Assembly (NCBI RefSeq): GCF_055900595.2
Contig: NZ_CM148325.1
Direction: 5' to 3' (one strand)
Length of the DNA stretch: 64,000 nucleotides
Within the stretch, counting starts at the first letter, position 1. Every line of letters begins with the position of its first letter. Under the pieces are notes generated by a model. It worked only from the letters and a program-made list of their open reading frames with translations, did not search any database and was not told where the DNA came from. Below, piece by piece: positions 7,125 to 36,682 of this stretch. Both the position numbers and the translations under genes were made by a program.

Positions 7125-9359
7125 ATGAGCACGAGAAAATTCAGAACCCTTATCACCGACATCGGGCTGGCAAAGCTGGCCGCAACAACGGCGCCTGGCG
7201 GTAGACCTGTACGCCTTACGCACATGGCTGTAGGGGACGGCAATGGAGAGCTTCGTCAGCCGCAGAAAAACCAGACATCGCTTTACAATGAGGTTTGGCG
7301 CCAGTCTGTCAACCGCGTCTTCACCGACCCGGAGAACCCGAACCGCCTCATCGCCGAACTGGTCATTCCTCCTGAAACCGGCGGATTCTGGGTGCGTGAA
7401 ATTGGTGTGTTTGATGATACAGGTACAATGATTGCAGTAGGAAATACCGCTGAAAGTTACAAGCCCACCAGAGAGGAAGGTTCAGGGCGGGCGCAGATAT
7501 TCCGTGCAGTAATCACCGTCACCTCCGACGCCGTGGTGGAACTGGTCATGGACACAACAACAATTCTGCCGACCACGGACTACATTGATGAGAAAATGGC
7601 GGAACACGCACGTTCCCGTAACCACCCTGACGCGACACTGACAGAAAAAGGATTCACCCAACTGAGCAGCGCCACAAACAGCACCTCTGAAACACTGGCC
7701 GCCACACCGAAGGCCGTCAAGGCTGCATATGACCTTGCAGCCGGTAAAGCACCCGCCAGCCACACCCACCCGTGGAATCAGATAACTGGTGTGCCATCAG
7801 CCTCGCTGACGGCAAAAGGCACCGTACAGCTGAGCAGTGCCACAAACAGTGAGTCAGAGACTGAGGCGGCCACCCCCAAAGCGGTTAAAGCCTTACACGA
7901 TATGGTGACGAGCAAGTATACAGGACAGGATGCAACCACCGGACGCAAAGGCATCGTACAGCTGAGCAGCGCCACAAACAGCAATTCCGAAACACTGGCG
8001 GCCACACCGAAGGCAGTAAGTGATGCACTGAGCATGGCGTTCGTGAAGCCAACAACATCCCTGGGGGAAACAGACCTGAACACTCTGGGGCGTAAGGAAG
8101 ACGCGGGAGATTATTACCAGCAGAGTGACTCAGGTGCGAGAACAGACAGAAACTATCCTGTAGAGAAGGCAGGAGAGTTACGCATCCGTGTTGGTGCATG
8201 GGGATTCTGCCAGCATGAATACACGAGCTGGGATCCGCCACGAAAATTTATCAGGACAGTTACCGGAAACTTTAACGGTAACGGCCCATGGTCAGAGTGG
8301 GTGGAGGTGACAAACACAGATGCAACAACTGGACGCAAAGGCATCGTACAGCTGAGCAGCGATACAAACAGCAATTCCGAAACGCTGGCGGCCACACCAA
8401 GAGCCGTCAAGGCTGCATATGACCTTGCAGCCGGTAAAGCACCCGCCAGCCACACCCACCCGTGGAATCAGATAACAGGTGTGCCATCAGCCTCGCTGAC
8501 GGCAAAAGGCACCGTACAGCTGAGCAGTGCCACAAACAGTGAGTCAGAGACTGAGGCCGCCACCCCCAAAGCGGTTAAAGCCTTACACGATATGCTGACG
8601 AGCAAGTATACAGGACAGGATGCAACCACCGGACGCAAAGGCATCGTACAGCTAAGCAGCGCCACAAACAGCAATTCCGAAACGCTGGCGGCCACACCAA
8701 AAGCTGTTAAAGCTGCGTATGACCTTGCCAACAGCAAAGCCTCGGCAGCCCACACTCATCGCTGGGCTCAGATCACAGACGCCCCTGTTTTTTCGTCTGT
8801 TGCCCGCGTCATCATGGGTAAACAAAGCATAAAAGATATTCTTGATTACTTTGGTTTAGGAGAAGGCTCGACGCTGCCAGTTGGCGTACCCGTTCCGTGG
8901 CCTTCGTCAAGACCACCTGAGGGGTGGTTACAGTGCAACGGTGCCGCATTCACGCGTACAAAATACCCAAAACTGGCGGTGGCCTACCCTGACCTCAGGC
9001 TACCAGATTTGCGCGGGGAATTTATTCGTGGATGGGATGACCTGCGAATGATTGACAGGGGACGCTTATTGTTATCCACACAGGAAGCAACATATATTTG
9101 TACCGCCATACAGGCGTACCACGGCGTAGCGGGAGGTGCAGATATTCAGGCAGGGATTTCATTTGCATCACATGATAACGACATCATAAACATAACCCCT
9201 GATCAACCCAGAACCGGTAACGGCATCCTGTACGGCACAAAACCAGTTGACAGATGGGCAATAGCCAGAGCCGGTAAGCTGGTGAGTAATGAAAAAGACA
9301 GATGGATAGCGATCAGACCGCGCAATATCGCTTTTAATTATATTGTGAGGGCAGTTTAA
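7125..9359 (+). CDS. Tail fibre protein, P2 gpH-like, with internal repeat modules and a collar-like C-terminal domain
   Basis: 744 aa; conserved gpH-type N-terminus (MSTRKFRTLITDIGLAKLAATTAPGG...); repeated GIVQLSSATNS...ATPKAVKA motifs; C-terminus ends NIAFNYIVRAV. Confidence 0.75.
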   Translation: MSTRKFRTLITDIGLAKLAATTAPGGRPVRLTHMAVGDGNGELRQPQKNQTSLYNEVWRQSVNRVFTDPENPNRLIAELVIPPETGGFWVREIGVFDDTGTMIAVGNTAESYKPTREEGSGRAQIFRAVITVTSDAVVELVMDTTTILPTTDYIDEKMAEHARSRNHPDATLTEKGFTQLSSATNSTSETLAATPKAVKAAYDLAAGKAPASHTHPWNQITGVPSASLTAKGTVQLSSATNSESETEAATPKAVKALHDMVTSKYTGQDATTGRKGIVQLSSATNSNSETLAATPKAVSDALSMAFVKPTTSLGETDLNTLGRKEDAGDYYQQSDSGARTDRNYPVEKAGELRIRVGAWGFCQHEYTSWDPPRKFIRTVTGNFNGNGPWSEWVEVTNTDATTGRKGIVQLSSDTNSNSETLAATPRAVKAAYDLAAGKAPASHTHPWNQITGVPSASLTAKGTVQLSSATNSESETEAATPKAVKALHDMLTSKYTGQDATTGRKGIVQLSSATNSNSETLAATPKAVKAAYDLANSKASAAHTHRWAQITDAPVFSSVARVIMGKQSIKDILDYFGLGEGSTLPVGVPVPWPSSRPPEGWLQCNGAAFTRTKYPKLAVAYPDLRLPDLRGEFIRGWDDLRMIDRGRLLLSTQEATYICTAIQAYHGVAGGADIQAGISFASHDNDIINITPDQPRTGNGILYGTKPVDRWAIARAGKLVSNEKDRWIAIRPRNIAFNYIVRAV
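7705..8010. repeat. Direct repeat copy A inside the tail fibre gene (about 300 bp, near-identical to 8395-8700)
   Basis: Read by eye: the stretch gccgtcaaggctgcatatgaccttgcagccggtaaagcacccgccagccacacccacccgtggaatcagataac... recurs almost exactly. Confidence 0.6.
8395..8700. repeat. Direct repeat copy B inside the tail fibre gene
   Basis: Near-identical to 7705-8010; shorter partial copies of the GIVQLSSATNS module occur at about 7925 and 8630. Confidence 0.6.
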
Positions 9360-9970
9360 TGAGTAACACTGCAGTTCTGGATGAAAACGGTATCGCCACT
9401 TTCGCAGGCGATATCACTGTATATCACTATGATGAGGAAACCCGGGAATACACCTCATCCTCTGTGGAGTATCTCGCCCTGGGGGTGGGTACCCCGGCAC
9501 ATTCATGCGCCGATGCCCCGCCAGAGGCAATGCCGGGTTACGTGATTTGCCGGACGTCCACGCTGGACGGGTGGGAGTATGTCCCCGATCATCGTGGAGA
9601 GACGGTATACAGCACAGAGAACGGTAATCCGGTCCAGATTACCCAACCAGGTGACTACCCGGAAGGGACAACGACAAAACAGCCTGCCACACCATGGGAT
9701 ACCTGGAACGGTGAGGCGTGGGTAACCGATACAGAACGGCAGCAAGCCGAAGAGCTGGAGGTTGCCAGACAGCAACGCAAGGAACGGGTGGATCAGGCGA
9801 TGAAGTCCATCGACCTCATCAACCTTAAGTTGCGGGCAGGTCGCAGTCTGACACCAGAAGAAACGGCAAAACTGAATGCCGTGCTGGATTATATCGACGA
9901 GCTGAACGCACTGGATATCAGCACGGAGCCTGAAATAAGCTGGCCGGAAACACCACCAGAAATGGAATGA
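9359..9970 (+). CDS. Tail fibre assembly chaperone (gpG / Tfa-like)
   Basis: 203-aa ORF starting at the tail fibre stop (TAATG overlap); typical Tfa N-terminus MSNTAVLDENGIATFAGDITVYHYDEETREY. Confidence 0.7.
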   Translation: MSNTAVLDENGIATFAGDITVYHYDEETREYTSSSVEYLALGVGTPAHSCADAPPEAMPGYVICRTSTLDGWEYVPDHRGETVYSTENGNPVQITQPGDYPEGTTTKQPATPWDTWNGEAWVTDTERQQAEELEVARQQRKERVDQAMKSIDLINLKLRAGRSLTPEETAKLNAVLDYIDELNALDISTEPEISWPETPPEME

Positions 9971-10040: not shown

Positions 10041-10529
10041 TCACATCAGATCATTTACGCCGCTTACTGTGGTATTCCAGACCGAACTTAACTTCCCTTT
10101 CATTCCCGAAAGCATATCAGACACCGGCGACGAGGCCATACTCTCCCGCAAATCCTCATCACAGCGTTCCAGACTGACAGTGAACTCAATTTTTTTGGCC
10201 TTACCGTGGCGGTCAAGTTCGCTTCGCGTTGTGCGGACAGCCGTTATCACATACATGCCGTATATCTGCCCCACACCGTCAATCAGCGGCCATGGGCGAC
10301 CAGTGTAAGCCTGCGTCGTTAAAAGGCTGAGGGAAACCTCACCGCCGGTAATTTCGGGATAAAGCACACCGGACAACGTGATCTGGTCGTCACCCGCCCC
10401 GATATACTGCCAGCTGGCCGAACGATTGATGCGTTCATTTTTAACGTGGCGCCAGGTTTTATTATGTTGCAGTTGTTGATGAGGCAGCGTACGCAACTCA
10501 AAAACAAACATGCCGTAAATCATCATCAT
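10041..10529 (-). CDS. Tail protein, P2 gpU-like
   Basis: 162 aa, N-terminus MMMIYGMFVFELRTLPHQQLQHNKTWRH closely resembles P2 gpU (159 aa); on the opposite strand to H/G. Confidence 0.7.
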   Translation of the reverse strand: MMMIYGMFVFELRTLPHQQLQHNKTWRHVKNERINRSASWQYIGAGDDQITLSGVLYPEITGGEVSLSLLTTQAYTGRPWPLIDGVGQIYGMYVITAVRTTRSELDRHGKAKKIEFTVSLERCDEDLRESMASSPVSDMLSGMKGKLSSVWNTTVSGVNDLM

Positions 10530-10540
10530 GCGAGGTACTC

Positions 10541-13500
10541 CTAATCTCTGTCACGGAAACTACCGACTGTCTGGCGGATACGGCGTTCCATTTCCGCACG
10601 GACGGCATCACCCACCATTTTTGCCAGTTCGCGCGGGTTTTGCGTGTGAACATCATGCAGGTGAATATGCAGTTCGCCAGTTAATCCCCATGGTGCCGGC
10701 TCACTCTGGCGCGGTCGGGGCGATGCGGGGGATATGGGCTGGCGCACAGCCTCAACCACCGGACGGGATGTTGCCGCCATCACTGGTGTCATTAGCGGGG
10801 AGAACGTCGGCATGACATCGTGAGTCATAACCGGTTTGATCACCGGCGGAACCACTGGCGTAATATTACCGGACAGTACCGGACGGACGACCGGAGGAAT
10901 AACCGGCACATTATTCACGGACACCACCGGCTTCACGACCGGCGACACGTTCGCCGTGGTGGATATCAGCGGCGAAACACTGACAGGCGGTGGCGCTGGC
11001 AGCGGTGGCAACGAAGGCACACTGACCGACGGCACCTGCGGCAGTCTGACAGGTGGCTCACTGACACTACCCGGTAACAGGGAAGCTGCTCGGTTAAAGC
11101 GTTCCTCCTTCCACTCACCACGAACGGCCAGCGCTTCCGGCAGGTTTTTAAAGATAATATCGCCGGGACCAGCGCGTTTTTTCGCCTGTTTCGCCTCATC
11201 CAGCAGACCACCGGTGTTATCGACGATTTTGTTCAGGCGGCGCATAGTGCCGGTATTCTCCCCCGTCAGGGGTGGTTGCCCCCCTTTGGGTTTTTCGCCG
11301 TCTTTTTTATCCTCGTCCTTTTTCGGCGGATTAATGACGTTAACATCCGCCAGAAGCATGGCAGCTTTCTCGTTCAGCAACTCCTTCTGTTTTAGTTCTT
11401 CCGCCTTTTTCCGGGCGCGCTCAACCGCCGACGGAATCAGCCCGAGTTTTTCCAGCACCCGGGTTAATGAGTCAATCAGCAGCGTAACCGGACCGGTCAC
11501 CAGATTGCTGATAAACTCCCCGACCTTCTGCCCGAACGTACGCCCGGCTTCCGTGCACTTGTCCAGCTCATCCTTTGTTGTGCTTACCGGCGCGAACAAA
11601 TCCACGAACCACTGCCACACACGCCCGATTGTCTGCCCGACATACTCAAACAGCGGTCCCAGTGGTGCCACAGCCTCGCGCAGTGGCGTAAGCCCCTGCC
11701 ACAGGCCGGACAAGAACCCGCCCACGACAGCCTTCAGCTGGTCCCAGTGCCGCCAGATAAGCACTGCCGCACCGACCAGTGTCGCCACCACAAGGCCCAC
11801 CGGACTTAACAGAAAACCCAGCGCCCCGCCAAGTGCGCCCACCGCACCACTCACCATCCCCCACAGTGCGGGCAGACCTGACAGTCTGAGCGCCAGTATT
11901 CCGATACCGCGCCCCAGTGAAATCAGTGCGCCGCCAGGTGAAGTGAACGCAGCCAGCAGACCACCACGCAGCGCGCCAAGTCCCGCCTGCACACCACGAA
12001 GCCGCCCCGCAACTACGCCCAGCAGTGCAGCAAACCGTCCGGCACCGGAGGTGATACCGACAAACAGCACGCGCCAGCCACCGATACCGCCCAGCGGACC
12101 ACCGAGTACGCCGCGCAGCTGCGTCAGTAACGGCAGCGCACGACCGAGGCCGGATGTGCCGGTCAGCAGGGCAAACCCAAGACGCAGTTTTGCCAGCGGC
12201 CCCATCAACACACCAGTGGCAAGTGACAGCGCCCCCATGGCCGCAACCGCAGCCAGCAGTACACCACCGGCAATCAGCAGTTGTTTTGTCAGTTCAGGGT
12301 GCGCCTGAGCCAGCGCGGTGACTTTCGCAATAACCCGGGTGAACGACTGCGTGACAGAACGCAGCGGCCCGTCAACGAGGTCAGCGACACGGATACGCAG
12401 TCCTTCCCATGCGCTGTTCAGTGATTTCAGGTCACCGTCCAGGTTATCAGCCATAACACGGGCAGTGTGATTAAGTTCCCCGGTGGCCAGTTCAATCTCC
12501 TGCGTAAGACGGGGAAGATTATTTTCCCCCGCCGCAGTGACAAGATTCATCAGGGAAACATAGGACTCCTGCCCGGCAATAGCCCTGAAAAAGGAGACCT
12601 GCGCGGCATTACCGTATTTTCGGGTGGCCTGGTACAGCTCATTCAGGATATTTTCCATCCGGCGCATGTTCCCGTAAGCATCCTGCGTCTCCACGCCAAG
12701 CTCTTTCAGTGCCATTGCAGCGGCCTTCGGCGGATCAACCAGACGTGACAGACTGGCACGCAGCGCCGTACCTGCATCACTTCCACGGATCCCCACACTG
12801 CCAAGGACACCCGTCATGGCTGCCGCCTGTTCAAGGGACAGGCCAAGTGAAGCTGCAACCGGACCCGTGTACTTCATGGTTTCACCCAGCGAACGGAGAT
12901 CCGTATTGGTTCGTGTGAAGGTGGCGGCCAGCGTGTCACCCACGCGATCCATCTGGTCAGCGGACAGACCAAACTGTGTGAGGATATTCGAACTGATATC
13001 GGCAGTCTGTCCCAGGTCCATCCCTGCAGCCATTGCCAGATCAAGCACGCCGGGTAGCGCCGCCTGTATGGCCTGTGGTGTGAAGCCGGCCATGGCAAGG
13101 AACGCCTGACCGCTGGCAGCATCACCGGCGGTAAACTGCGTTTCAGAGCCCAGCTTAATGGCCTGTTCGCGCAGCGCCTTAAACTGCGGACTGTTTTTGT
13201 CAATACGGGTCAGCGCCTGGACGCGCGACATCTCCTTACCAAAACTGACCGCCGGTTGCAGGAAACGTCCGGCCGCATAGCCGCCTGCCGCCGCCGTACC
13301 AACCGCCGTAAGTCCGACCGTTTTAAGTTTTCCCGCCGTCTCCTGAGCACGGGAATATTGCTGGCGTGCCTGCGTGACACGTGCCAGCGCCTGCCGTTCG
13401 CGTTCCAGCTGGTCGTTGTATTGCTGTGTTCGCCGTATGGCCTGTTGAATGGTGTTGTCACTGCCGGAAAGCGCAATACCGTGGCGCCGCAGCTCACCAC

Positions 13501-13888
13501 CCAGTTCGCGCATTCGCTGAACTTCACGCGCACGGACCTCATTGAGACGCTCAAGTTTGAGGCTCAAATCGTTCATCAGCTTTTTCTGTTTGTCAGACAG
13601 CACGGTTCCGGCGCGCTGAATTTGCTGAAGTGCGCTTAACTGGCGTTGCGCCCTGACAATGCCGTTTCCGGCCTTGTTTGCAGCCTCGCGGGCGCGATCA
13701 AATGAACGGGCGTGGCGTTCCAGGTTTTTGATCGCACCCTGCGTTCTCTGTATGGAGTCGCCAAGCTGGCCCATCATGCGACGGGCGTTTTCGGTGGGAC
13801 GGGTCAGCCTGTCAACAGCGCTGAAGGCGACCCGTATATCAAGCGTTTTCATGCTCTGCGTTCCCGCTGCGAAGGGCCGCCCGCTCAC
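10541..13888 (-). CDS. Tail tape measure protein, P2 gpT-like
   Basis: 1115-aa ORF; coiled-coil N-terminal region, Gly/Ala-rich hydrophobic centre, Pro/Val-rich C-terminal part; track start is GTG at 13888, an in-frame ATG also lies at 13852. Confidence 0.8.
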   Translation of the reverse strand: MSGRPFAAGTQSMKTLDIRVAFSAVDRLTRPTENARRMMGQLGDSIQRTQGAIKNLERHARSFDRAREAANKAGNGIVRAQRQLSALQQIQRAGTVLSDKQKKLMNDLSLKLERLNEVRAREVQRMRELGGELRRHGIALSGSDNTIQQAIRRTQQYNDQLERERQALARVTQARQQYSRAQETAGKLKTVGLTAVGTAAAGGYAAGRFLQPAVSFGKEMSRVQALTRIDKNSPQFKALREQAIKLGSETQFTAGDAASGQAFLAMAGFTPQAIQAALPGVLDLAMAAGMDLGQTADISSNILTQFGLSADQMDRVGDTLAATFTRTNTDLRSLGETMKYTGPVAASLGLSLEQAAAMTGVLGSVGIRGSDAGTALRASLSRLVDPPKAAAMALKELGVETQDAYGNMRRMENILNELYQATRKYGNAAQVSFFRAIAGQESYVSLMNLVTAAGENNLPRLTQEIELATGELNHTARVMADNLDGDLKSLNSAWEGLRIRVADLVDGPLRSVTQSFTRVIAKVTALAQAHPELTKQLLIAGGVLLAAVAAMGALSLATGVLMGPLAKLRLGFALLTGTSGLGRALPLLTQLRGVLGGPLGGIGGWRVLFVGITSGAGRFAALLGVVAGRLRGVQAGLGALRGGLLAAFTSPGGALISLGRGIGILALRLSGLPALWGMVSGAVGALGGALGFLLSPVGLVVATLVGAAVLIWRHWDQLKAVVGGFLSGLWQGLTPLREAVAPLGPLFEYVGQTIGRVWQWFVDLFAPVSTTKDELDKCTEAGRTFGQKVGEFISNLVTGPVTLLIDSLTRVLEKLGLIPSAVERARKKAEELKQKELLNEKAAMLLADVNVINPPKKDEDKKDGEKPKGGQPPLTGENTGTMRRLNKIVDNTGGLLDEAKQAKKRAGPGDIIFKNLPEALAVRGEWKEERFNRAASLLPGSVSEPPVRLPQVPSVSVPSLPPLPAPPPVSVSPLISTTANVSPVVKPVVSVNNVPVIPPVVRPVLSGNITPVVPPVIKPVMTHDVMPTFSPLMTPVMAATSRPVVEAVRQPISPASPRPRQSEPAPWGLTGELHIHLHDVHTQNPRELAKMVGDAVRAEMERRIRQTVGSFRDRD

Positions 13889-14365
13889 GCCAGGCGACCA
13901 CCTCGCCGGGATCCATCAGGAAGATTTCAGCGGGAGACCAGTTGAAAATAACGGCGATATCCGCCACAAAGTCTTCAATGTGCTCAAAGGGCACGACGGT
14001 TATCAGCCTGCCGTCGCCGCCCCACTCTTCCCGCCAGAGTCCTGACCGGCCAAAAAATTAACCGCCACCCCGCACAGCTGAATAAAATCAGCGGACCCCA
14101 TGCGCTTAAGCAGAACCTCGTCCAGTCGCGGCGAAGTGACGCGCGGGAGTAACTCAAACATCGCGTCCGTTTTCATGTTCAGCACGTCAAGCAGTGACAG
14201 CCCGCGCAGTGAACCGGCCTGCTGTACAGCAGGCGTGATTTCCACATACGTGATTTTTTTGTTACCGAGCACAAGGGGCGTTTTCAGCGTCACGCCGCGC
14301 TCACTGGTCACGTCCGCCGCATCAGCACCGTCAGTAACAGGGGCAACAACCGGATTTTCTTTCAT
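13839..14365 (-). CDS. Putative E+E' fusion made by programmed -1 ribosomal frameshift
   Basis: TTTTTTG on the coding strand at 14051-14057; the -1 frame stays open for about 70 codons and stops at TGA 13839-13841, just inside the tape measure 5' end. Confidence 0.45.
14003..14365 (-). CDS. Tail assembly chaperone, P2 gpE-like (zero-frame product)
   Basis: 120-aa ORF between the tube gene and tape measure gene; contains the slippery heptamer near its 3' end. Confidence 0.6.
   Translation of the reverse strand: MKENPVVAPVTDGADAADVTSERGVTLKTPLVLGNKKITYVEITPAVQQAGSLRGLSLLDVLNMKTDAMFELLPRVTSPRLDEVLLKRMGSADFIQLCGVAVNFLAGQDSGGKSGAATAG
14051..14057 (-). other. Slippery heptamer T_TTT_TTG (candidate -1 frameshift site)
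   Basis: Plus strand reads caaaaaa at 14051-14057; reverse complement is TTTTTTG in the E reading frame (AVNFLAGQ). Confidence 0.45.
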
Positions 14366-14415
14366 GCATAAAACCTCAAATCAGGGGGCGACGCCGCGCG
14401 CCGCCGTGGGAAACA

Positions 14416-14934
14416 TTAACCACCAAGACCAATCGCCGAGCGCACGCGGTCCGGGAAGACGTTTTTGCCGTCCTTGCGTTCGATGTGGTTCAGTAAATCA
14501 ATCTCCAGCACCGGACGGTCGTTAATGCTGAGTTTGTAGTAGGTACTCCTGACCGCATAGGTGTGAGACGTGACCTCACCCTGTTTTGCCTCCCCCGTAT
14601 CAATTTCCGTCACGCGGCCGCGAAGCTCAATTTCATACAGGTCGCTCTGCTCTTCATCGTTGTAGTACTCACCGACAAAGCGCAGCAGCGTACCGTCGAT
14701 CGTGCCGCCGTACTTAAGGAACAGTTCGCGGGTCGGCCCGCCCATGGTGAAACTCGCATCCAGCGCGCCGTCATCCAGACCAAGGTCGATATTCACCGCG
14801 CCGGCCATACCACCACCGCGATAGGCTTCCGTTTTACGGGTCAGTTTGGGGGGGGTGAAGCCGGTCACCCTGCCAATCTGGTTCACCCCGTCAGTAAACA
14901 GCGTGAACACCCTGAGATTTTTTGGTACGGCCAT
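14416..14934 (-). CDS. Tail tube protein, P2 gpFII-like
   Basis: 172 aa, same length as P2 FII; directly downstream of the sheath gene. Confidence 0.75.
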   Translation of the reverse strand: MAVPKNLRVFTLFTDGVNQIGRVTGFTPPKLTRKTEAYRGGGMAGAVNIDLGLDDGALDASFTMGGPTRELFLKYGGTIDGTLLRFVGEYYNDEEQSDLYEIELRGRVTEIDTGEAKQGEVTSHTYAVRSTYYKLSINDRPVLEIDLLNHIERKDGKNVFPDRVRSAIGLGG

Positions 14935-16124
14935 TAAGCACCTCCAAGCGTCGCAAATGCAGGACCAAAGAATTCATCAGTAAACGTCTGGTAAAGTTCC
15001 ATATCCTCAAGCGGCGGAACGGGCGTGTACTTGTAGCGGATACGCACGCGTCCCTGACGAAGTTCCGTGGTGCTGTTATCCACCACGTCATACCAGCACT
15101 CCGCACCAATGAGACGTCCTGACGTAACCAGCGCATCCAGTTTTGCGCGAATTGCGCTTAACACGTCTTTCACATTAGCAGGGGTCAGCGGGGCATCAAT
15201 CGTTTCAAACTGCGCTTCCGCAATGGAATCAGCCAGCACCTGAGCGGTTCGCGTGTACACCTCAAAGAGATACGCCTTCGTTTCCGGCGTACGGTTGCCC
15301 CAGAAGCGGAAACCGTTACGGCAAATGATGGTAGTGATTTCCTTGTTGTTGAGATTGTTGGCATCGCTGTCTTCGGACTGAAGGGACCAGAACACCGGGC
15401 TGGAAATACCCAGCACATTTCTTACCGGCACGTTGGACAGCGATTTATGCCAGCCCTGTTCGTGGTCAATACGTGCACGTAAACCGCAGGCGTACGCCGC
15501 AGCCGGGAAGACCTCATTAGCGCCGGATTTCGGGTTATGGGCGATGAAGTCCGGCCAGACCAGCATAAGTTCGCGCTCGTTAAATCTGGCGCGGTAGCTG
15601 ATTGCATCGGCGGGCTTCTTGCAGTTGTGACAGCCCGCGTAGACAAATGCGCGAAGTTTTTCTGCAATTACACACAGGGATTTTGTGACAGCTTCAGTAT
15701 CCAGTCCGGGAGCTGCGATGATGCGCGGACGGTAACCGATGGCATCATCCTGTTCAGCTATCAGAAGTGCATACATGCCGGTATAGTTTCCGTCATCATC
15801 AGAACCACCGATAACGAGTTTGTCCTGGGTTTGTCCTGAATGCGTCTCTTCCTTAAATTCAGGAACGCGCACCACAATCACCTTCGTGCTCACCTGGTCG
15901 GCGACAGCCTTAAGCGATTTGTAAAGCGTCCCCTTTGTGCCGGCCTTACCCAGCACATCACTGACGCGGGTCAGCAGTGTGGGTTTGTTCAGCGGGAACA
16001 GAGTTTCATCCGCGTCATCTGCCGTAGCCACAATACCAATAACACTGGAATCCACATCATTAATGGCGGTGGCAAGGCCGGTACTTTCCCTTACGCGCGC
16101 ACCATGAAAGCGTGTTTCACTCAT
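14934..16124 (-). CDS. Contractile tail sheath protein, P2 gpFI-like
   Basis: Internal ATG at 16124 (MSETRFHGARV...) gives 396 aa, same length as P2 FI; conserved motifs such as RNGFRFWGNRT. Confidence 0.8.
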   Translation of the reverse strand: MSETRFHGARVRESTGLATAINDVDSSVIGIVATADDADETLFPLNKPTLLTRVSDVLGKAGTKGTLYKSLKAVADQVSTKVIVVRVPEFKEETHSGQTQDKLVIGGSDDDGNYTGMYALLIAEQDDAIGYRPRIIAAPGLDTEAVTKSLCVIAEKLRAFVYAGCHNCKKPADAISYRARFNERELMLVWPDFIAHNPKSGANEVFPAAAYACGLRARIDHEQGWHKSLSNVPVRNVLGISSPVFWSLQSEDSDANNLNNKEITTIICRNGFRFWGNRTPETKAYLFEVYTRTAQVLADSIAEAQFETIDAPLTPANVKDVLSAIRAKLDALVTSGRLIGAECWYDVVDNSTTELRQGRVRIRYKYTPVPPLEDMELYQTFTDEFFGPAFATLGGA

Positions 16125-16200: not shown

Positions 16201-16218
16201 TGTCTCCTGACAGCGACA
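16201..16218. promoter_or_regulatory. TGT-N12-ACA dyad, candidate Ogr/Delta-type late activator site between divergent FI and D
   Basis: tgtctcctgacagcgaca lies inside a longer palindrome (ttgttgtc...gacaacaa); about 77 bp from the FI start and about 68 bp from the D start. Confidence 0.4.
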
Positions 16219-16285: not shown

Positions 16286-17377
16286 ATGAAAGAGCTGTCA
16301 GTTACCGTTCCGTCACCGGATATCGACATCACCATCAACAACAACACACTGGCAAACCTCACAGAGCGACTCATGACGCTGACCCTGACGGATAACCGGG
16401 CCTTTGAGGCAGACCGCGTCACCCTCACCCTTGACGATACGGACGGGCAGTTACAGTTGCCACCACGTGGCGCACGCCTGAGAGTGATGATTGGCTGGCG
16501 AGGAGAATCACTGGTTAACAAGGGCACCTACGTCGTTGATGAGGTTGCGTGGGAAGGACCTCCAGATAAACTGATCATCACCGCCAGCAGCGCAGATTTT
16601 CGGGAAGAGTTCAACGTGAGGCGGGAGGTATCCTGGCACGACGTGACCGTAAAACAGGTTGTGTCAGCCATCGCTCACCGCTACGGCCTGAAGACACAGA
16701 TAAGCGAAATCCTCATGGATATCGAAATTGACCACGCTGACCAGACCGAAGAGAGCGATATATCCTTCCTGACCCGCATGGCTGAAATGCTGGGTGCGAT
16801 TGCCACCGTAAAAAACGGCAGCCTGTTATTCATTCTGCCGGGTGGCGGAACCGGGCCGGACGGAAGAGCCCTGCCTTCGTTCGCCATTACCCGCAGCAGC
16901 GGCGACAGTCACCGCTTTCGCATTGCTGACCGTGATGCGTATACGGGGGTCCGGGCGCACTGGCTCGATCTGAAGTTCGGGCAAAAGAAAAAAGTGAACG
17001 TGAAGCGACGCAGGGAAGCCGGGAAACAGAAACAGGAGAAGAGCAGCAGCCGGGAGGGTGATTACATGGAAGGCGCGGAAGGGAACGTCTACGTTCTGCG
17101 CAGGACTTACCAGAATGAAGAAACCGCACGACGTGCAGCTGCGGCAAAGTGGCAGGAGTTACAGCGGGGAGCAGCGGCATTCTCCATCACTCTGGCACGG
17201 GGTCGTGCCGACCTGTATCCCGAAATGCACGGCAGGGTAACAGGTTTTAAAAGCGAGGTGGACAATCAGGACTGGATTATTGCCAGGGTGGAGCACATCA
17301 TAGATGAAAGCGGCTTCACCACACAACTGGAGCTGGAAGCGAAAATCCCCGAATGGATAGCAGATTCAGGCGGATAA
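16286..17377 (+). CDS. Tail protein D (late control gene D family), P2 gpD-like
   Basis: ATG at 16286 preceded by aggagag; 363 aa with gpD-type motifs (LTLTDNR.FEAD, FSITLARGRADLYPE). Confidence 0.7.
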   Translation: MKELSVTVPSPDIDITINNNTLANLTERLMTLTLTDNRAFEADRVTLTLDDTDGQLQLPPRGARLRVMIGWRGESLVNKGTYVVDEVAWEGPPDKLIITASSADFREEFNVRREVSWHDVTVKQVVSAIAHRYGLKTQISEILMDIEIDHADQTEESDISFLTRMAEMLGAIATVKNGSLLFILPGGGTGPDGRALPSFAITRSSGDSHRFRIADRDAYTGVRAHWLDLKFGQKKKVNVKRRREAGKQKQEKSSSREGDYMEGAEGNVYVLRRTYQNEETARRAAAAKWQELQRGAAAFSITLARGRADLYPEMHGRVTGFKSEVDNQDWIIARVEHIIDESGFTTQLELEAKIPEWIADSGG

Positions 17378-17420
17378 AATTAAAATGAGCCATCTCCACT
17401 CAGCCAGATAAGGAGAAGCC

Positions 17421-17672
17421 ATGTTCCGTTGTCCCCTATGCGGTGCATCCGCACGTATCCGCACCAGTCGCAATGAAAATGATTCAGGCACAGTTCGCCT
17501 GAAGTACTACCAGTGCAATAACCTCGAATGCGGGATCGGCTTTACCACACTGGAGGGTTTTAACAAATTCACATCAAAACGCGCCCCGTCGCCGCAGGGT
17601 ACAGAGCGGATACCGTGGGAAGATTTTCCGGGATCTCACAGGGGGAATACTCAGATTAATCTTGATATTTAA
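17421..17672 (+). CDS. ogr: Ogr/Delta-family zinc-finger late transcription activator
   Basis: 83 aa; N-terminus MFRCPLCGASARIRTSR...YYQCNNLEC carries the four-Cys Ogr signature; last gene of the P2-type late region. Confidence 0.7.
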   Translation: MFRCPLCGASARIRTSRNENDSGTVRLKYYQCNNLECGIGFTTLEGFNKFTSKRAPSPQGTERIPWEDFPGSHRGNTQINLDI

Positions 17673-18607: not shown

Positions 18608-18841
18608 GTGGAAAGGCCCCGGAAAACATTTCTGTTTAACCGAGGCCCTAACCGCATTACCTTGACAAGTGAAAGGTTAGCGCCTCTCCGGAAAAGGAGC
18701 AAGTGCTATGTCGCAAAAATCGCTTACGGCCATCACGTTCTGCGTGACGGCAATCCTCATCATCTGGATATTGCACGGTTCGCTGTGCGAAATACGGATG
18801 AGCTTCTGGGGAGCGGAGTTTGCGGCGTTCTTACAATGTAA
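18608..18841 (+). CDS. mok-like overlapping reading frame of the hok-like locus
   Basis: 77-codon frame starting at GTG 100 nt upstream of the hok-like ATG and covering it in another frame, as in hok/mok/sok modules. Confidence 0.4.
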   Translation: MERPRKTFLFNRGPNRITLTSERLAPLRKRSKCYVAKIAYGHHVLRDGNPHHLDIARFAVRNTDELLGSGVCGVLTM

Positions 18842-18848
18842 GAAGTAA
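18708..18848 (+). CDS. Hok-family type I toxin (46 aa), apparently intact
   Basis: ATG at 18708 preceded by aaggag with 8-nt spacing; MSQKSLTAITFCVTAILIIWILHGSLCEIRMSFWGAEFAAFLQCKK has a single TM helix, the Hok SLCEIR motif and the E(F/V)AAF motif; too short for the ORF track. Confidence 0.6.
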   Translation: MSQKSLTAITFCVTAILIIWILHGSLCEIRMSFWGAEFAAFLQCKK

Positions 18849-36002: not shown

Positions 36003-36250
36003 TTGTTTTACCGCCTGATGGGCGAAGAGAAAGAACGAGTAAAAGGTCGGTTTAACCGGCCTTTTTATTTTGTACGAAGAACGCTGGAAGTATAAGTACA
36101 TAACTTGTCTCGATGTAGATATACTGCACAACTTGTTTACAGTATGAGCAAACGAGAATTGTCAGTAAAATTCTTCTTGACCGTTTTACTCCAACTCCCT
36201 ATAGTAGCGCCCCGTTGCCCCCCCATGAGGTCAGGCAGCAAAACAATTTG

Positions 36251-36337
36251 GTGAGGTGTCCGAGTGGCTGAAGGAGCACGCCTGGAAAGTGTGTATACGG
36301 CAACGTATCGGGGGTTCGAATCCCCCCCTCACCGCCA
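36251..36337 (+). tRNA. serW: tRNA-Ser (GGA anticodon)
   Basis: ggtgaggtgtccgagtggctgaaggagcacgcctggaaagtgtgtatacggcaacgtatcgggggttcgaatccccccctcaccgcca: 7-bp acceptor stem, long variable arm, T-loop GGTTCGAATCC, encoded CCA. Confidence 0.9.
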
Positions 36338-36378: not shown

Positions 36379-36682
36379 CGCATTTTATCTGCCTGTACGG
36401 CAGTGAACGGTATAAAAATCGAGTTTTCCTTTCGGTTGGCTTTCTAAGCTGCCTGTACGGCAGTGAACTCAAATACTACACGTCTAGCCCGTTGTTAATA
36501 AAGCAAAACCATCTCATTTTCCTGCTGCCCCCCCTTTTTTATCCTTACCTTTCAGCTGCACTACTTATCAACAACTTACCATCATCATCAAAAAAAGGGT
36601 CTGAACCTCCTCCACCCCATAAATAAAAAGTCCGTAACCTCTTTCGAGATTACGGACTTCACCAACCTACCTAACAATTAGA

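What the first reader, a model, noticed from the sequence alone, without database searches (positions are those of the whole stretch)
13839..14365. Candidate programmed -1 frameshift producing an E+E' chaperone
The E-like gene contains TTTTTTG in frame (14051-14057, minus strand). Shifting -1 at that heptamer opens a frame of about 70 further codons ending at TGA 13839-13841, which overlaps the first codons of the tape measure gene. This is the arrangement used by the tail assembly chaperones of P2 and most long-tailed phages, and it is preserved inside the re-oriented block.
Basis: partly seen in the sequence, partly recalled or inferred. Interest (0 to 1): 0.45.

Follow-up and report, generated by a model that had tools for sequence, protein, structure and literature searches.

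The report
P2-type tail chaperone frameshift site
This is the ordinary, well-known ribosomal -1 frameshift that P2-like phages use to make two versions of their tail assembly chaperone (E and E+E'), here in a P88-like E. coli prophage where databases annotate the two halves as separate genes.

Summary
On the minus strand, a 120-codon E-like ORF (14365..14003) carries TTTTTTG at 14057-14051 in the phase T_TTT_TTG. The -1 frame is closed by a TAA just before the heptamer. It then runs 70 codons to TGA 13841-13839, overlapping the tape-measure ATG (13852) by 14 nt.

- The gene sits between the tail tube and tape-measure genes of a Peduoviridae (P88/Xuanwuvirus-like) prophage.
- The -1 extension hits Pfam PF06528 (the P2 E' segment, E 8e-13).
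- The 175-aa conceptual fusion aligns collinearly across the junction with P2 E+E' (36% identity, E 1e-27).
- In 22 loci from 18 distinct P2-like lineages, an in-phase slippery heptamer lies at the same aligned spot. It is TTTTTTG in 19; the others have A_AAT_TTT, C_CCT_TTC or G_GGA_AAG.
- Just after the heptamer, the -1 frame is better conserved than the zero-frame tail.

I found no downstream RNA structure. An upstream Shine-Dalgarno-like motif is explained by the encoded amino acids.

This is a new member of a known kind, of low interest. Its practical value is an annotation fix, because RefSeq lists a "hypothetical protein" plus a separate 51-aa "GpE family" ORF. No expression data exist for this prophage.

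The parts
14003..14365 (-). Zero-frame tail assembly chaperone gene, a P2 gpE homologue. It has 120 codons plus a TGA stop. RefSeq calls it 'hypothetical protein'.
   Evidence: ORF and translation. It hits phrog_103 at E 4.7e-31, the same PHROG as P2 gpE. BLASTP to P2 gpE gives 36% identity, E 1e-14. It has no Pfam PF10109 hit.
14374..14377 (-). GAGG Shine-Dalgarno sequence, 8 nt upstream of the E start codon (ATG 14365).
   Evidence: Read directly from the sequence.
14051..14057 (-). Slippery heptamer T_TTT_TTG, the site of the -1 ribosomal frameshift. It covers codons 104-105 (Phe-Leu) of E.
   Evidence: Searches give phase 2, meaning X is the third base of a zero-frame codon. The site is conserved at the same aligned position in 19 of 22 related loci, and the other 3 carry alternative in-phase heptamers.
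14058..14060 (-). TAA stop in the -1 frame immediately 5' of the heptamer. The -1 frame can only be entered at or after the heptamer.
   Evidence: the -1 frame opens at nt 308 of the gene, which is the heptamer.
13839..14051 (-). E' extension in the -1 frame: 70 codons plus TGA 13841-13839. The expressed product is E+E', 175 aa, join(14365..14051, 14051..13839).
   Evidence: Translation. Pfam PF06528 at E 8e-13. phrog_1756 at E 8e-32. The fusion is collinear with P2 E+E'.
14003..14050 (-). Dual-coded segment. It holds the last 15 zero-frame codons of E plus the stop, and the first 16 codons of E'. The -1 frame is the better conserved of the two.
   Evidence: Identity to relatives is 7-11 of 16-18 residues in the -1 frame against 3-8 of 15-17 in the zero frame, in the six closest lineages. 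Seven of the 12 window-versus-P88 differences fall on the -1-frame third position.
13992..13994 (-). GTG used by RefSeq/PGAP as the start of a separate 51-aa 'GpE family phage tail protein'. It is probably not a real start.
   Evidence: One search shows the annotation. The aligned codon is GCG or CGG in the Klebsiella and Enterobacter relatives. The -1 frame is conserved upstream of this codon. The predicted beta-hairpin at residues 112-124 lies upstream of it.
10541..13852 (-). Tape measure gene (P2 T homologue). Its ATG 13852 overlaps the end of E' by 14 nt.
   Evidence: Pfam PF10145 at E 6e-53. The start codon follows the RefSeq annotation.
14416..14934 (-). Tail tube gene (P2 FII homologue), immediately upstream of E.
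   Evidence: Pfam PF04985 at E 1.8e-44.
14934..16124 (-). Tail sheath gene (P2 FI homologue), the first gene of the inverted FI-FII-E-T-U block.
   Evidence: Pfam PF04984, PF17482 and PF22671. The start is mapped from the RefSeq annotation.

Best explanation
This is the E / E+E' tail assembly chaperone pair of a P2-like (Peduoviridae, P88/Xuanwuvirus-like) E. coli prophage, expressed by programmed -1 ribosomal frameshifting.

Most ribosomes translate the 120-codon E ORF to its TGA. A minority slip back one base when tRNA-Phe (P site, UUU) and tRNA-Leu (A site, UUG) sit on T_TTT_TTG at 14057-14051 and re-pair on UUU UUU. These ribosomes then read 70 more codons in the -1 frame and terminate at TGA 13841-13839, just inside the tape-measure gene. 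The product is a 175-aa E+E' that shares its first 105 residues with E.

By analogy with lambda gpG/gpGT and P2 E/E+E', the shared E part would coat the tape measure protein. The E' part would recruit tail tube subunits. The fixed slip frequency would set the E : E+E' ratio, and neither protein would end up in the virion.

Shown here: the sequence anatomy, the homology to P2 E and E', and family-wide conservation of the in-phase heptamer and the -1 relation. Inferred: that the shift actually occurs in this prophage, its efficiency, and the protein functions.
For: 1. Anatomy. The heptamer is in phase, a -1 frame stop lies directly before it, and 70 open codons follow, ending in the tape-measure start.
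2. Context. The gene lies between the tail tube (PF04985) and tape-measure (PF10145) genes of a P2-type tail operon.
3. Homology of the extension. It hits PF06528 at E 8e-13 and phrog_1756 at E 8e-32. All 18 aligned family members hit PF06528.
4. Collinearity. The fusion aligns without a break across the junction with P2 E+E', 36% identity, E 1e-27...VNFL/G... against ...VGFL/V....
5. Conservation. All 22 loci (18 distinct lineages from Escherichia, Salmonella, Klebsiella, Enterobacter, Burkholderia, Ralstonia, Shewanella, Acidovorax and Mannheimia phages) have an in-phase X_XXY_YYZ heptamer at the same aligned position. Each has a -1 extension of 51-73 codons. Nineteen carry TTTTTTG. The exceptions carry other canonical slip heptamers (A_AAT_TTT, C_CCT_TTC, G_GGA_AAG), as expected for ribosomal tandem slippage.
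6. Constraint. In the dual-coded 16 codons after the heptamer, the -1 frame (W..ER.GDG..I motif) is more conserved than the zero-frame tail. Window-versus-P88 differences pile up on -1-frame third positions.
7. Structure. AlphaFold2 models the fusion with pLDDT 87 and pTM 0.77. Confidence of about 93 runs across the junction, with a beta-hairpin at residues 112-124 encoded upstream of any candidate internal start.
8. Literature. P2 makes E (91 aa) and E+E' (142 aa) by a -1 shift at TTTTTTG, conserved in P2-like phages (PMC3091744). The G/GT-type shift is conserved in long-tailed phages, with higher efficiency in P2 relatives (PMC5009743).
Against: - There are no expression or proteomic data for this prophage, so occurrence and efficiency are inferred from homology.
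- The E part does not reach any Pfam TAC family. PF10109, which P2 gpE and 14 of 18 relatives hit, gives no hit. NCBIfam also gives no hit.
- No stimulatory RNA structure is detectable downstream.
- The AlphaFold alignment was built from conceptual fusions, so its confidence across the junction is not independent evidence.
- The window starts inside the prophage, so I could not check whether the whole phage is intact.
Confidence: 0.9

Rival explanations
1. E' is an independent small gene, as RefSeq annotates it. Under this reading, a 51-aa 'GpE family phage tail protein' is initiated at GTG 13994 and no frameshift occurs.
For: PGAP and many phage records annotate a separate small ORF here. This exact 51-aa protein is recorded on at least 999 contigs, while the 175-aa fusion is absent from the 15-billion-protein collection.
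Against: - No good Shine-Dalgarno sequence precedes GTG 13994. The upstream sequence is GGCAGGCTGATAACCGTC.
- The aligned codon is not a start codon in the Klebsiella ST16phi5.4 (GCG) and Enterobacter phiT5282H (CGG) relatives.
- Annotated E' starts differ from record to record, giving products of 39-51 aa.
- The -1 frame is conserved at the protein level upstream of the GTG, right back to the heptamer.
- The in-phase heptamer would have no reason to be conserved in 22 of 22 loci.
- In P2, the product is the E+E' fusion made from the E start codon (PMC3091744).
Confidence: 0.04
2. The same E+E' fusion is made by transcriptional slippage rather than ribosomal slippage. RNA polymerase would add one extra U while copying the T6 run.
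For: The site contains a homopolymeric run of six T. Transcriptional slippage gives the same protein product as a -1 ribosomal shift and is used by some phages and insertion sequences (reviewed in PMC5009743).
Against: - Six T is shorter than the runs of about 8-9 or more that usually give efficient slippage in bacteria (established knowledge, not tested here).
- Relatives that lack the run keep an in-phase two-codon slippery pattern instead: C_CCT_TTC, G_GGA_AAG, A_AAT_TTT. That fits tRNA re-pairing, not polymerase stuttering.
- The strict phase conservation of the heptamer (22 of 22 loci) is irrelevant to polymerase slippage but essential for ribosomal slippage.
Confidence: 0.03
3. The signal is an inherited relic in a silent or defective prophage. 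The sequence is a true E/E' homologue, but nothing is expressed or functional in this host.
For: The window begins inside the prophage, so completeness cannot be judged. In a 100%-identical copy of this region in E. coli strain 135, the adjacent tape-measure gene is broken into pseudogene fragments.
Against: - In this window the sheath, tube, E, E', a 1103-codon tape measure and the U homologue are all open.
- The heptamer and both frames are intact in 93-100% identical copies.
- P88-type phages are inducible and infective (PMC5285337, PMC6456863).
- This rival concerns activity, not the nature of the element.
Confidence: 0.03

Closest known systems
Bacteriophage P2 gpE / gpE+E' (FETUD operon; Christie et al. 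2002, cited via PMC3091744 and PMC5009743)
   Same: - The position is the same, between FII (tube) and T (tape measure).
- The slippery heptamer TTTTTTG is the same and in the same phase, encoding Phe-Leu at the junction.
- The shift is -1 in both, and E' ends at the T start in both.
- E' matches PF06528, and E and E' fall in the same PHROGs (103, 1756, 6416).
- Identity over E+E' is 36%.
- No downstream hairpin is found, as reported for P2 (PMC3091744).
   Different: - E is 120 aa here, not 91. It has an 18-residue poorly conserved N-terminal extension and a 15-codon rather than 6-codon zero-frame tail.
- E+E' is 175 aa here, not 142.
- E' carries about 13 extra residues right after the junction (GLWREEWGGDGRLITV). 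They are predicted to form a beta-hairpin and are shared only with the Xuanwuvirus, Reipivirus, Novemvirus and Reginaelenavirus lineages.
- The E part is below Pfam PF10109 detection.
- The operon block FI-U is inverted relative to the neighbouring late genes.
Escherichia phage P88 and other Xuanwuvirus members (Chuche, 500465-2, P88_4B11, Citrobacter phiSM)
   Same: - These are the closest sequenced phages, with 66-69% amino-acid identity over the fusion.
- They share the inverted FI-U block.
- The E and E' lengths are the same (121-124 aa and 70-71 aa), and so is the extra linker motif.
- They have the same annotation as two separate 'tail protein' CDS.
   Different: - P88 and Chuche have an overlapping second heptamer, A_AAT_TTT_TTG.
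- P88_4B11 has lost TTTTTTG (it reads TTTTATG) and keeps only A_AAT_TTT.
- The window has T_AAT upstream, so it has only the TTTTTTG option.
- Nucleotide identity is too low for megablast against the phage collection.
Lambda gpG / gpGT tail assembly chaperones (Levin 1993; Xu, Hendrix and Duda 2004, 2013, 2014, cited via PMC5009743)
   Same: - The logic is the same: two overlapping ORFs between the major tail and tape-measure genes.
[quoted passage not shown]
- The fusion is the minor product, and a chaperone role is inferred.
- The Mannheimia member of the present family even uses lambda's G_GGA_AAG.
   Different: - I found no detectable sequence similarity to lambda G/T.
- The host tail is contractile (myovirus) rather than a siphovirus tail.
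- The heptamer differs.
- P2-type efficiency is reported to be 2-3 fold higher than lambda's (PMC5009743).

Membership tests
P2-type gpE / gpE+E' frameshifted tail assembly chaperone | The gene pair lies between the tail tube (FII) gene and the tape measure (T) gene. | tested here: met
   The tube gene (14934..14416) hits PF04985. The tape-measure gene (13852..10541) hits PF10145. RefSeq shows the same gene order.
P2-type gpE / gpE+E' frameshifted tail assembly chaperone | [quoted passage not shown] | tested here: met
   T_TTT_TTG lies at 14057-14051, codons 104-105 of 120. It sits at the same aligned site as in P2.
P2-type gpE / gpE+E' frameshifted tail assembly chaperone | The -1 frame is open from the heptamer to the start of the tape-measure gene and has no conserved start of its own. 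| tested here: met
   Seventy codons run to TGA 13841-13839, overlapping ATG 13852. The GTG 13994 position is not a start codon in the Klebsiella and Enterobacter relatives.
P2-type gpE / gpE+E' frameshifted tail assembly chaperone | The extension is homologous to P2 E' (Pfam PF06528 Phage_P2_GpE). | tested here: met
   E 8e-13, 48 bits against a cut-off of 23. P2 E' itself scores E 1e-21.
P2-type gpE / gpE+E' frameshifted tail assembly chaperone | The upstream part is homologous to P2 gpE. | tested here: met
   BLASTP gives 36% identity over 87 residues, E 1e-14. Both proteins hit phrog_103.
P2-type gpE / gpE+E' frameshifted tail assembly chaperone | The fusion protein is actually produced at a set ratio and is needed for tail assembly. 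| not testable with these tools
   This needs proteomics or genetics on an induced lysogen.
Pfam PF10109 Phage_TAC_7 (tail assembly chaperones E, 41, 14) | The HMM score is above the gathering threshold. | tested here: not met
   The window E protein gives no hit even at E<=10. P2 gpE hits at E 2.6e-12, and 14 of the 18 aligned relatives hit. Membership is therefore by transitive and pairwise homology only.
Tail assembly chaperone fold (e.g. HK97 TAC, PDB 2ob9) | Structural similarity of the E domain to solved TAC structures. | tested here: inconclusive
dnaX-type stimulated -1 frameshift (upstream SD-like element plus downstream hairpin) | A downstream stable or conserved RNA structure lies 5-9 nt after the heptamer. 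| tested here: not met
   The z-scores are -0.12 (60 nt) and -0.49 (90 nt). The consensus fold of 6 relatives is -1.09 kcal/mol, with nothing near the site.
dnaX-type stimulated -1 frameshift (upstream SD-like element plus downstream hairpin) | A selected Shine-Dalgarno-like element lies about 10-15 nt upstream of the heptamer. | tested here: inconclusive
   CGGGGTGG starts 15 nt upstream and pairs with the anti-SD at -9.5 kcal/mol, the strongest in the gene. Similar motifs occur in 12 of 19 lineages. Synonymous recoding gives equally strong motifs often (window P 0.14, combined P 0.24). P88 lacks the motif.

The most novel reading that the evidence does not exclude
The most novel reading not excluded concerns the P88-like subgroup of the family. 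This subgroup has remodelled the recoding region in three ways:
- a longer dual-coded overlap (15-17 zero-frame codons after the slip site);
- an extra, conserved 13-residue beta-hairpin (W..ER.GDG..I) encoded in the -1 frame right after the heptamer;
- in this prophage, a strong anti-SD-complementary GGGGTGG starting 15 nt upstream.

Together these could change frameshift efficiency (dnaX-like stimulation) or add a new contact surface in E+E'. That might be linked to the unusually long, 1103-aa tape measure.
Probability: 0.1. Interest if true: 0.3.

Novelty: new member of a known kind. Interest (0 to 1): 0.12.

Why it matters
The value is mainly in annotation quality.

- In this prophage lineage, the E gene is labelled 'hypothetical protein' and E' is called as a free-standing 51-aa gene on about a thousand or more contigs.
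- The real 175-aa product is absent from a 15-billion-protein collection.
- Recognising the -1 shift gives the correct proteome for P88-like prophages of poultry and human E. coli.
- It also adds divergent lineages to the data on P2-type slip sites, because three of the 22 loci use alternative heptamers.

It does not change the understanding of frameshifting or tail assembly.

Tried and rejected
1. Downstream stimulatory structure. Folding the 60, 90 and 180 nt around and after the heptamer gave z-scores of -0.12, -0.49 and -1.85. A consensus fold of six relatives gave -1.09 kcal/mol with no helix near the site. A hairpin starting 28 nt after the heptamer in the window is not kept in P88. Rejected.

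2. Upstream SD-like stimulator. A clear peak of anti-SD complementarity lies 9-20 nt upstream in many lineages. It disappears as a selection signal once the encoded amino acids are held fixed. Not supported, though a functional effect is not excluded.

3. Terminator-like hairpin. The hairpin at 13967-13951 is the palindromic coding of the conserved A-D-I-A motif (GCGGATATCGCC). It lies about 84 nt from the slip site, so I do not consider it a stimulator.

4. Inverted repeats flanking the inverted FI-U block. None were convincing.

5. Sequence searches that found nothing:
- Megablast against the phage collection found nothing. Relatives only appear at the protein level.
- NCBIfam gave no hit.
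- A PDB sequence search gave no meaningful hit.

6. The original P2 paper (Christie 2002) is not in the held library. Its content is cited second-hand via PMC3091744 and PMC5009743.

7. Tandem repeats as an explanation for the long tape-measure gene: none found.
Full report
**Observation**

I read the region on the minus strand.
- An ATG at 14365, preceded by GAGG with 8 nt of spacing, opens a 120-codon ORF that ends at TGA 14005-14003.
- TTTTTTG occupies 14057-14051. The zero-frame codons are AAT TTT TTG, so the heptamer is in the T_TTT_TTG phase required for simultaneous -1 slippage of two tRNAs.
- In the -1 frame, a TAA (14060-14058) lies directly before the heptamer. After it, the frame is open for exactly 70 codons to TGA 13841-13839.
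- The tape-measure ORF begins at ATG 13852 (the RefSeq choice; GTG 13888 is also in frame). E' therefore ends 14 nt inside it.

**Is it more than chance?**

The bare pattern is not very rare. Among all stop-to-stop ORFs of at least 90 codons in the window, I counted 116 in-phase XXXYYYZ heptamers. Thirteen have a -1 extension of at least 40 codons that passes the zero-frame stop. For TTTTTTG specifically, in the last 30 codons of a given gene and followed by 70 open codons, a rough upper bound is about 9e-4. The case rests on context, homology and conservation, not on the pattern.

**Context**

- The flanking genes are a tail sheath (PF04984, PF17482, PF22671), a tail tube (PF04985, E 1.8e-44) and a tape measure (PF10145, E 6e-53).
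- The region is 99.8-100% identical to chromosomal prophages in about two dozen complete E. coli genomes, many from chickens. These prophages are integrated next to serS.
- The closest sequenced phages are P88-like Peduoviridae of the genus Xuanwuvirus, at 66-69% amino-acid identity.
- RefSeq annotates the E ORF as 'hypothetical protein' and a separate 51-aa 'GpE family phage tail protein' starting at GTG 13994. No frameshift is annotated.
P88 has the same layout, so this is a lineage trait.

**Homology**

- The -1 extension alone hits Pfam PF06528 'Phage_P2_GpE' (E 8e-13) and phrog_1756 (E 8e-32). The E part hits phrog_103 (E 4.7e-31).
- P2's own E+E' falls in the same three PHROGs. Its PF06528 match covers residues 104-139, which is the E' part.
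- The 175-aa conceptual fusion aligns with the 142-aa P2 E+E' in one collinear BLASTP alignment that runs through the junction (36% identity, E 1e-27).
- The E parts alone give E 1e-14.
- The window's E does not reach Pfam PF10109 (Phage_TAC_7), which P2 gpE and 14 of 18 aligned relatives do hit. NCBIfam is also silent. This probably explains the 'hypothetical protein' label.

**Comparative test of the recoding signal**

I fetched the E-T region from 21 further loci: one E. coli genome, two IMG/VR contigs and 18 phage records. Together with the window they represent 18 distinct lineages.
- Every one has an in-phase X_XXY_YYZ heptamer at the same aligned position, encoding the nearly invariant Phe-Leu. 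Each is followed by a -1 ORF of 51-73 codons that carries the ADIAVIFHW...WRE.A..RSG motif.
- Nineteen loci have TTTTTTG.
- P88_4B11 has A_AAT_TTT, Klebsiella ST16-OXA48phi5.4 has C_CCT_TTC, and the Mannheimia phage has G_GGA_AAG (lambda's heptamer).
- Replacement by other canonical two-codon slip sites, always in phase, points to ribosomal rather than transcriptional slippage.

**Constraint in the overlap**

In the 16 codons read in both frames, the -1 frame is clearly the better conserved. Identity between the window and its six closest lineages is 7-11 of 16-18 residues in the -1 frame, against 3-8 of 15-17 in the zero frame. The zero-frame tail is a low-complexity Gly/Ser/Ala/acidic tail. 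Between the window and P88, 7 of the 12 differences in this segment fall on -1-frame third positions, which are zero-frame second positions. Selection therefore acts on the -1 frame right from the heptamer, upstream of the annotated GTG start. The aligned codon of that GTG is not a start codon in the Klebsiella and Enterobacter relatives.

**Structure**

**Stimulators**

- The sequence downstream folds no better than shuffles (z -0.12 and -0.49). It has no conserved structure in relatives. This agrees with what is reported for P2 and Burkholderia P2-like phages (PMC3091744).
- Upstream, CGGGGTGG starts 15 nt before the heptamer and pairs with the anti-SD at -9.5 kcal/mol, the strongest site in the gene. 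A peak at the same place is seen in 12 of 19 lineages.
- Holding the amino acids fixed and resampling synonymous codons reproduces such motifs often (window P 0.14, combined P 0.24). P88 lacks the motif. I therefore do not claim a selected stimulator.

**Mechanism and comparison**

The best explanation is the classical one: a -1 programmed ribosomal frameshift at T_TTT_TTG gives E (major product) and E+E' (minor product). These would act as tape-measure-binding and tube-recruiting chaperones, as in lambda G/GT and P2 E/E+E' (PMC5009743, PMC3091744).

Differences from P2 are modest:
- a longer E (120 against 91 aa), with a disordered N-terminal extension and a longer zero-frame tail;
- about 13 extra residues after the junction, shared with a few related genera;
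- the inverted operon block.

The rivals are each unlikely for the reasons given in their entries. They are an independent E' start, transcriptional slippage, and a silent relic.

**Novelty**

The kind is textbook. This instance is an unannotated, somewhat divergent member. The exact 175-aa fusion is absent from a 15-billion-protein collection, while its two halves are recorded separately on at least 999 contigs each. Interest is low. The result is a confirmation and an annotation correction.

Noticed in passing
window 10041-16124 (minus strand) versus 7125-9970 and 16286-17672 (plus strand): The FI-FII-E-T-U tail block is inverted relative to the neighbouring late genes H/G and D/ogr. In P2 all of these run the same way. 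Phage P88 shows the same layout, so it is a Xuanwuvirus trait. No convincing inverted repeats flank the block.
   Followed up: partly
window 16201-16218: A perfect TGT-N12-ACA dyad (TGTctcctgacagcgACA) lies in the 161-bp gap between the divergent sheath (ATG 16124, minus strand) and D (ATG 16286, plus strand) genes. From memory, this is the consensus for Ogr/Delta-type late-promoter activators of P2/P4. A single dyad about 55 nt from plausible start sites on both sides might serve both divergent late promoters. An ogr-like gene lies at 17421-17672.
   Followed up: no
window 14041-14072 (minus strand), upstream of the heptamer: An anti-SD-complementary motif, CGGGGTGG, starts 15 nt upstream of the slip site (-9.5 kcal/mol, the strongest in the gene). 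A similar peak occurs in 12 of 19 P2-like lineages. A synonymous-recoding control shows it is largely explained by the encoded Gly/Glu-Val residues (combined P 0.24).
   Followed up: yes
window 10541-13852 (minus strand); L001 20649-23950: The tape-measure gene is 1103 codons here against 935 in P88, which implies a longer tail. No internal tandem repeat explains the extra length. In E. coli strain 135, whose E region is 100% identical, the tape-measure gene is broken into pseudogene fragments.
   Followed up: partly
window 36250-36337 and 36441-36468: A tRNA-Ser(GGA) gene is followed about 100 nt later by a single Rfam CRISPR-DR4 repeat (50 bits) on the opposite strand. It is probably the known residual type I-F CRISPR remnant of E. 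coli between clpA and infA. That identification is from memory and was not checked.
   Followed up: no
window 18708-18848 (plus strand): A 46-aa Hok/Gef-family toxin ORF lies just beyond ogr at the prophage end, annotated in the identical RefSeq region. P88 carries a hok/gef-like gene at the equivalent position, so it is probably phage cargo.
   Followed up: no
window 14387-14405 (minus strand), between the tube gene and E: A GC-rich 8-bp hairpin (GGCGGCGC-GCG-GCGUCGCC) lies in the 50-nt tube-E intergenic region. It is not followed by a T run and is not significant against shuffles (z -0.16). A Mannheimia relative has an annotated terminator at the same place, so an attenuator lowering chaperone and tape-measure expression relative to sheath and tube is conceivable.
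   Followed up: partly
window 63888-63968 (minus strand): An Rfam naRNA4 (nucleoid-associated, REP-derived sRNA) match at 78 bits. It is unrelated to the finding.
   Followed up: no
L009 (OR820920.1, 'Bacillus phage vB_BpuM-ZY1'): A record labelled as a Bacillus pumilus phage carries a typical proteobacterial P2-like E/E' with TTTTTTG and about 39% identity to the window protein. The host assignment looks doubtful.
   Followed up: no
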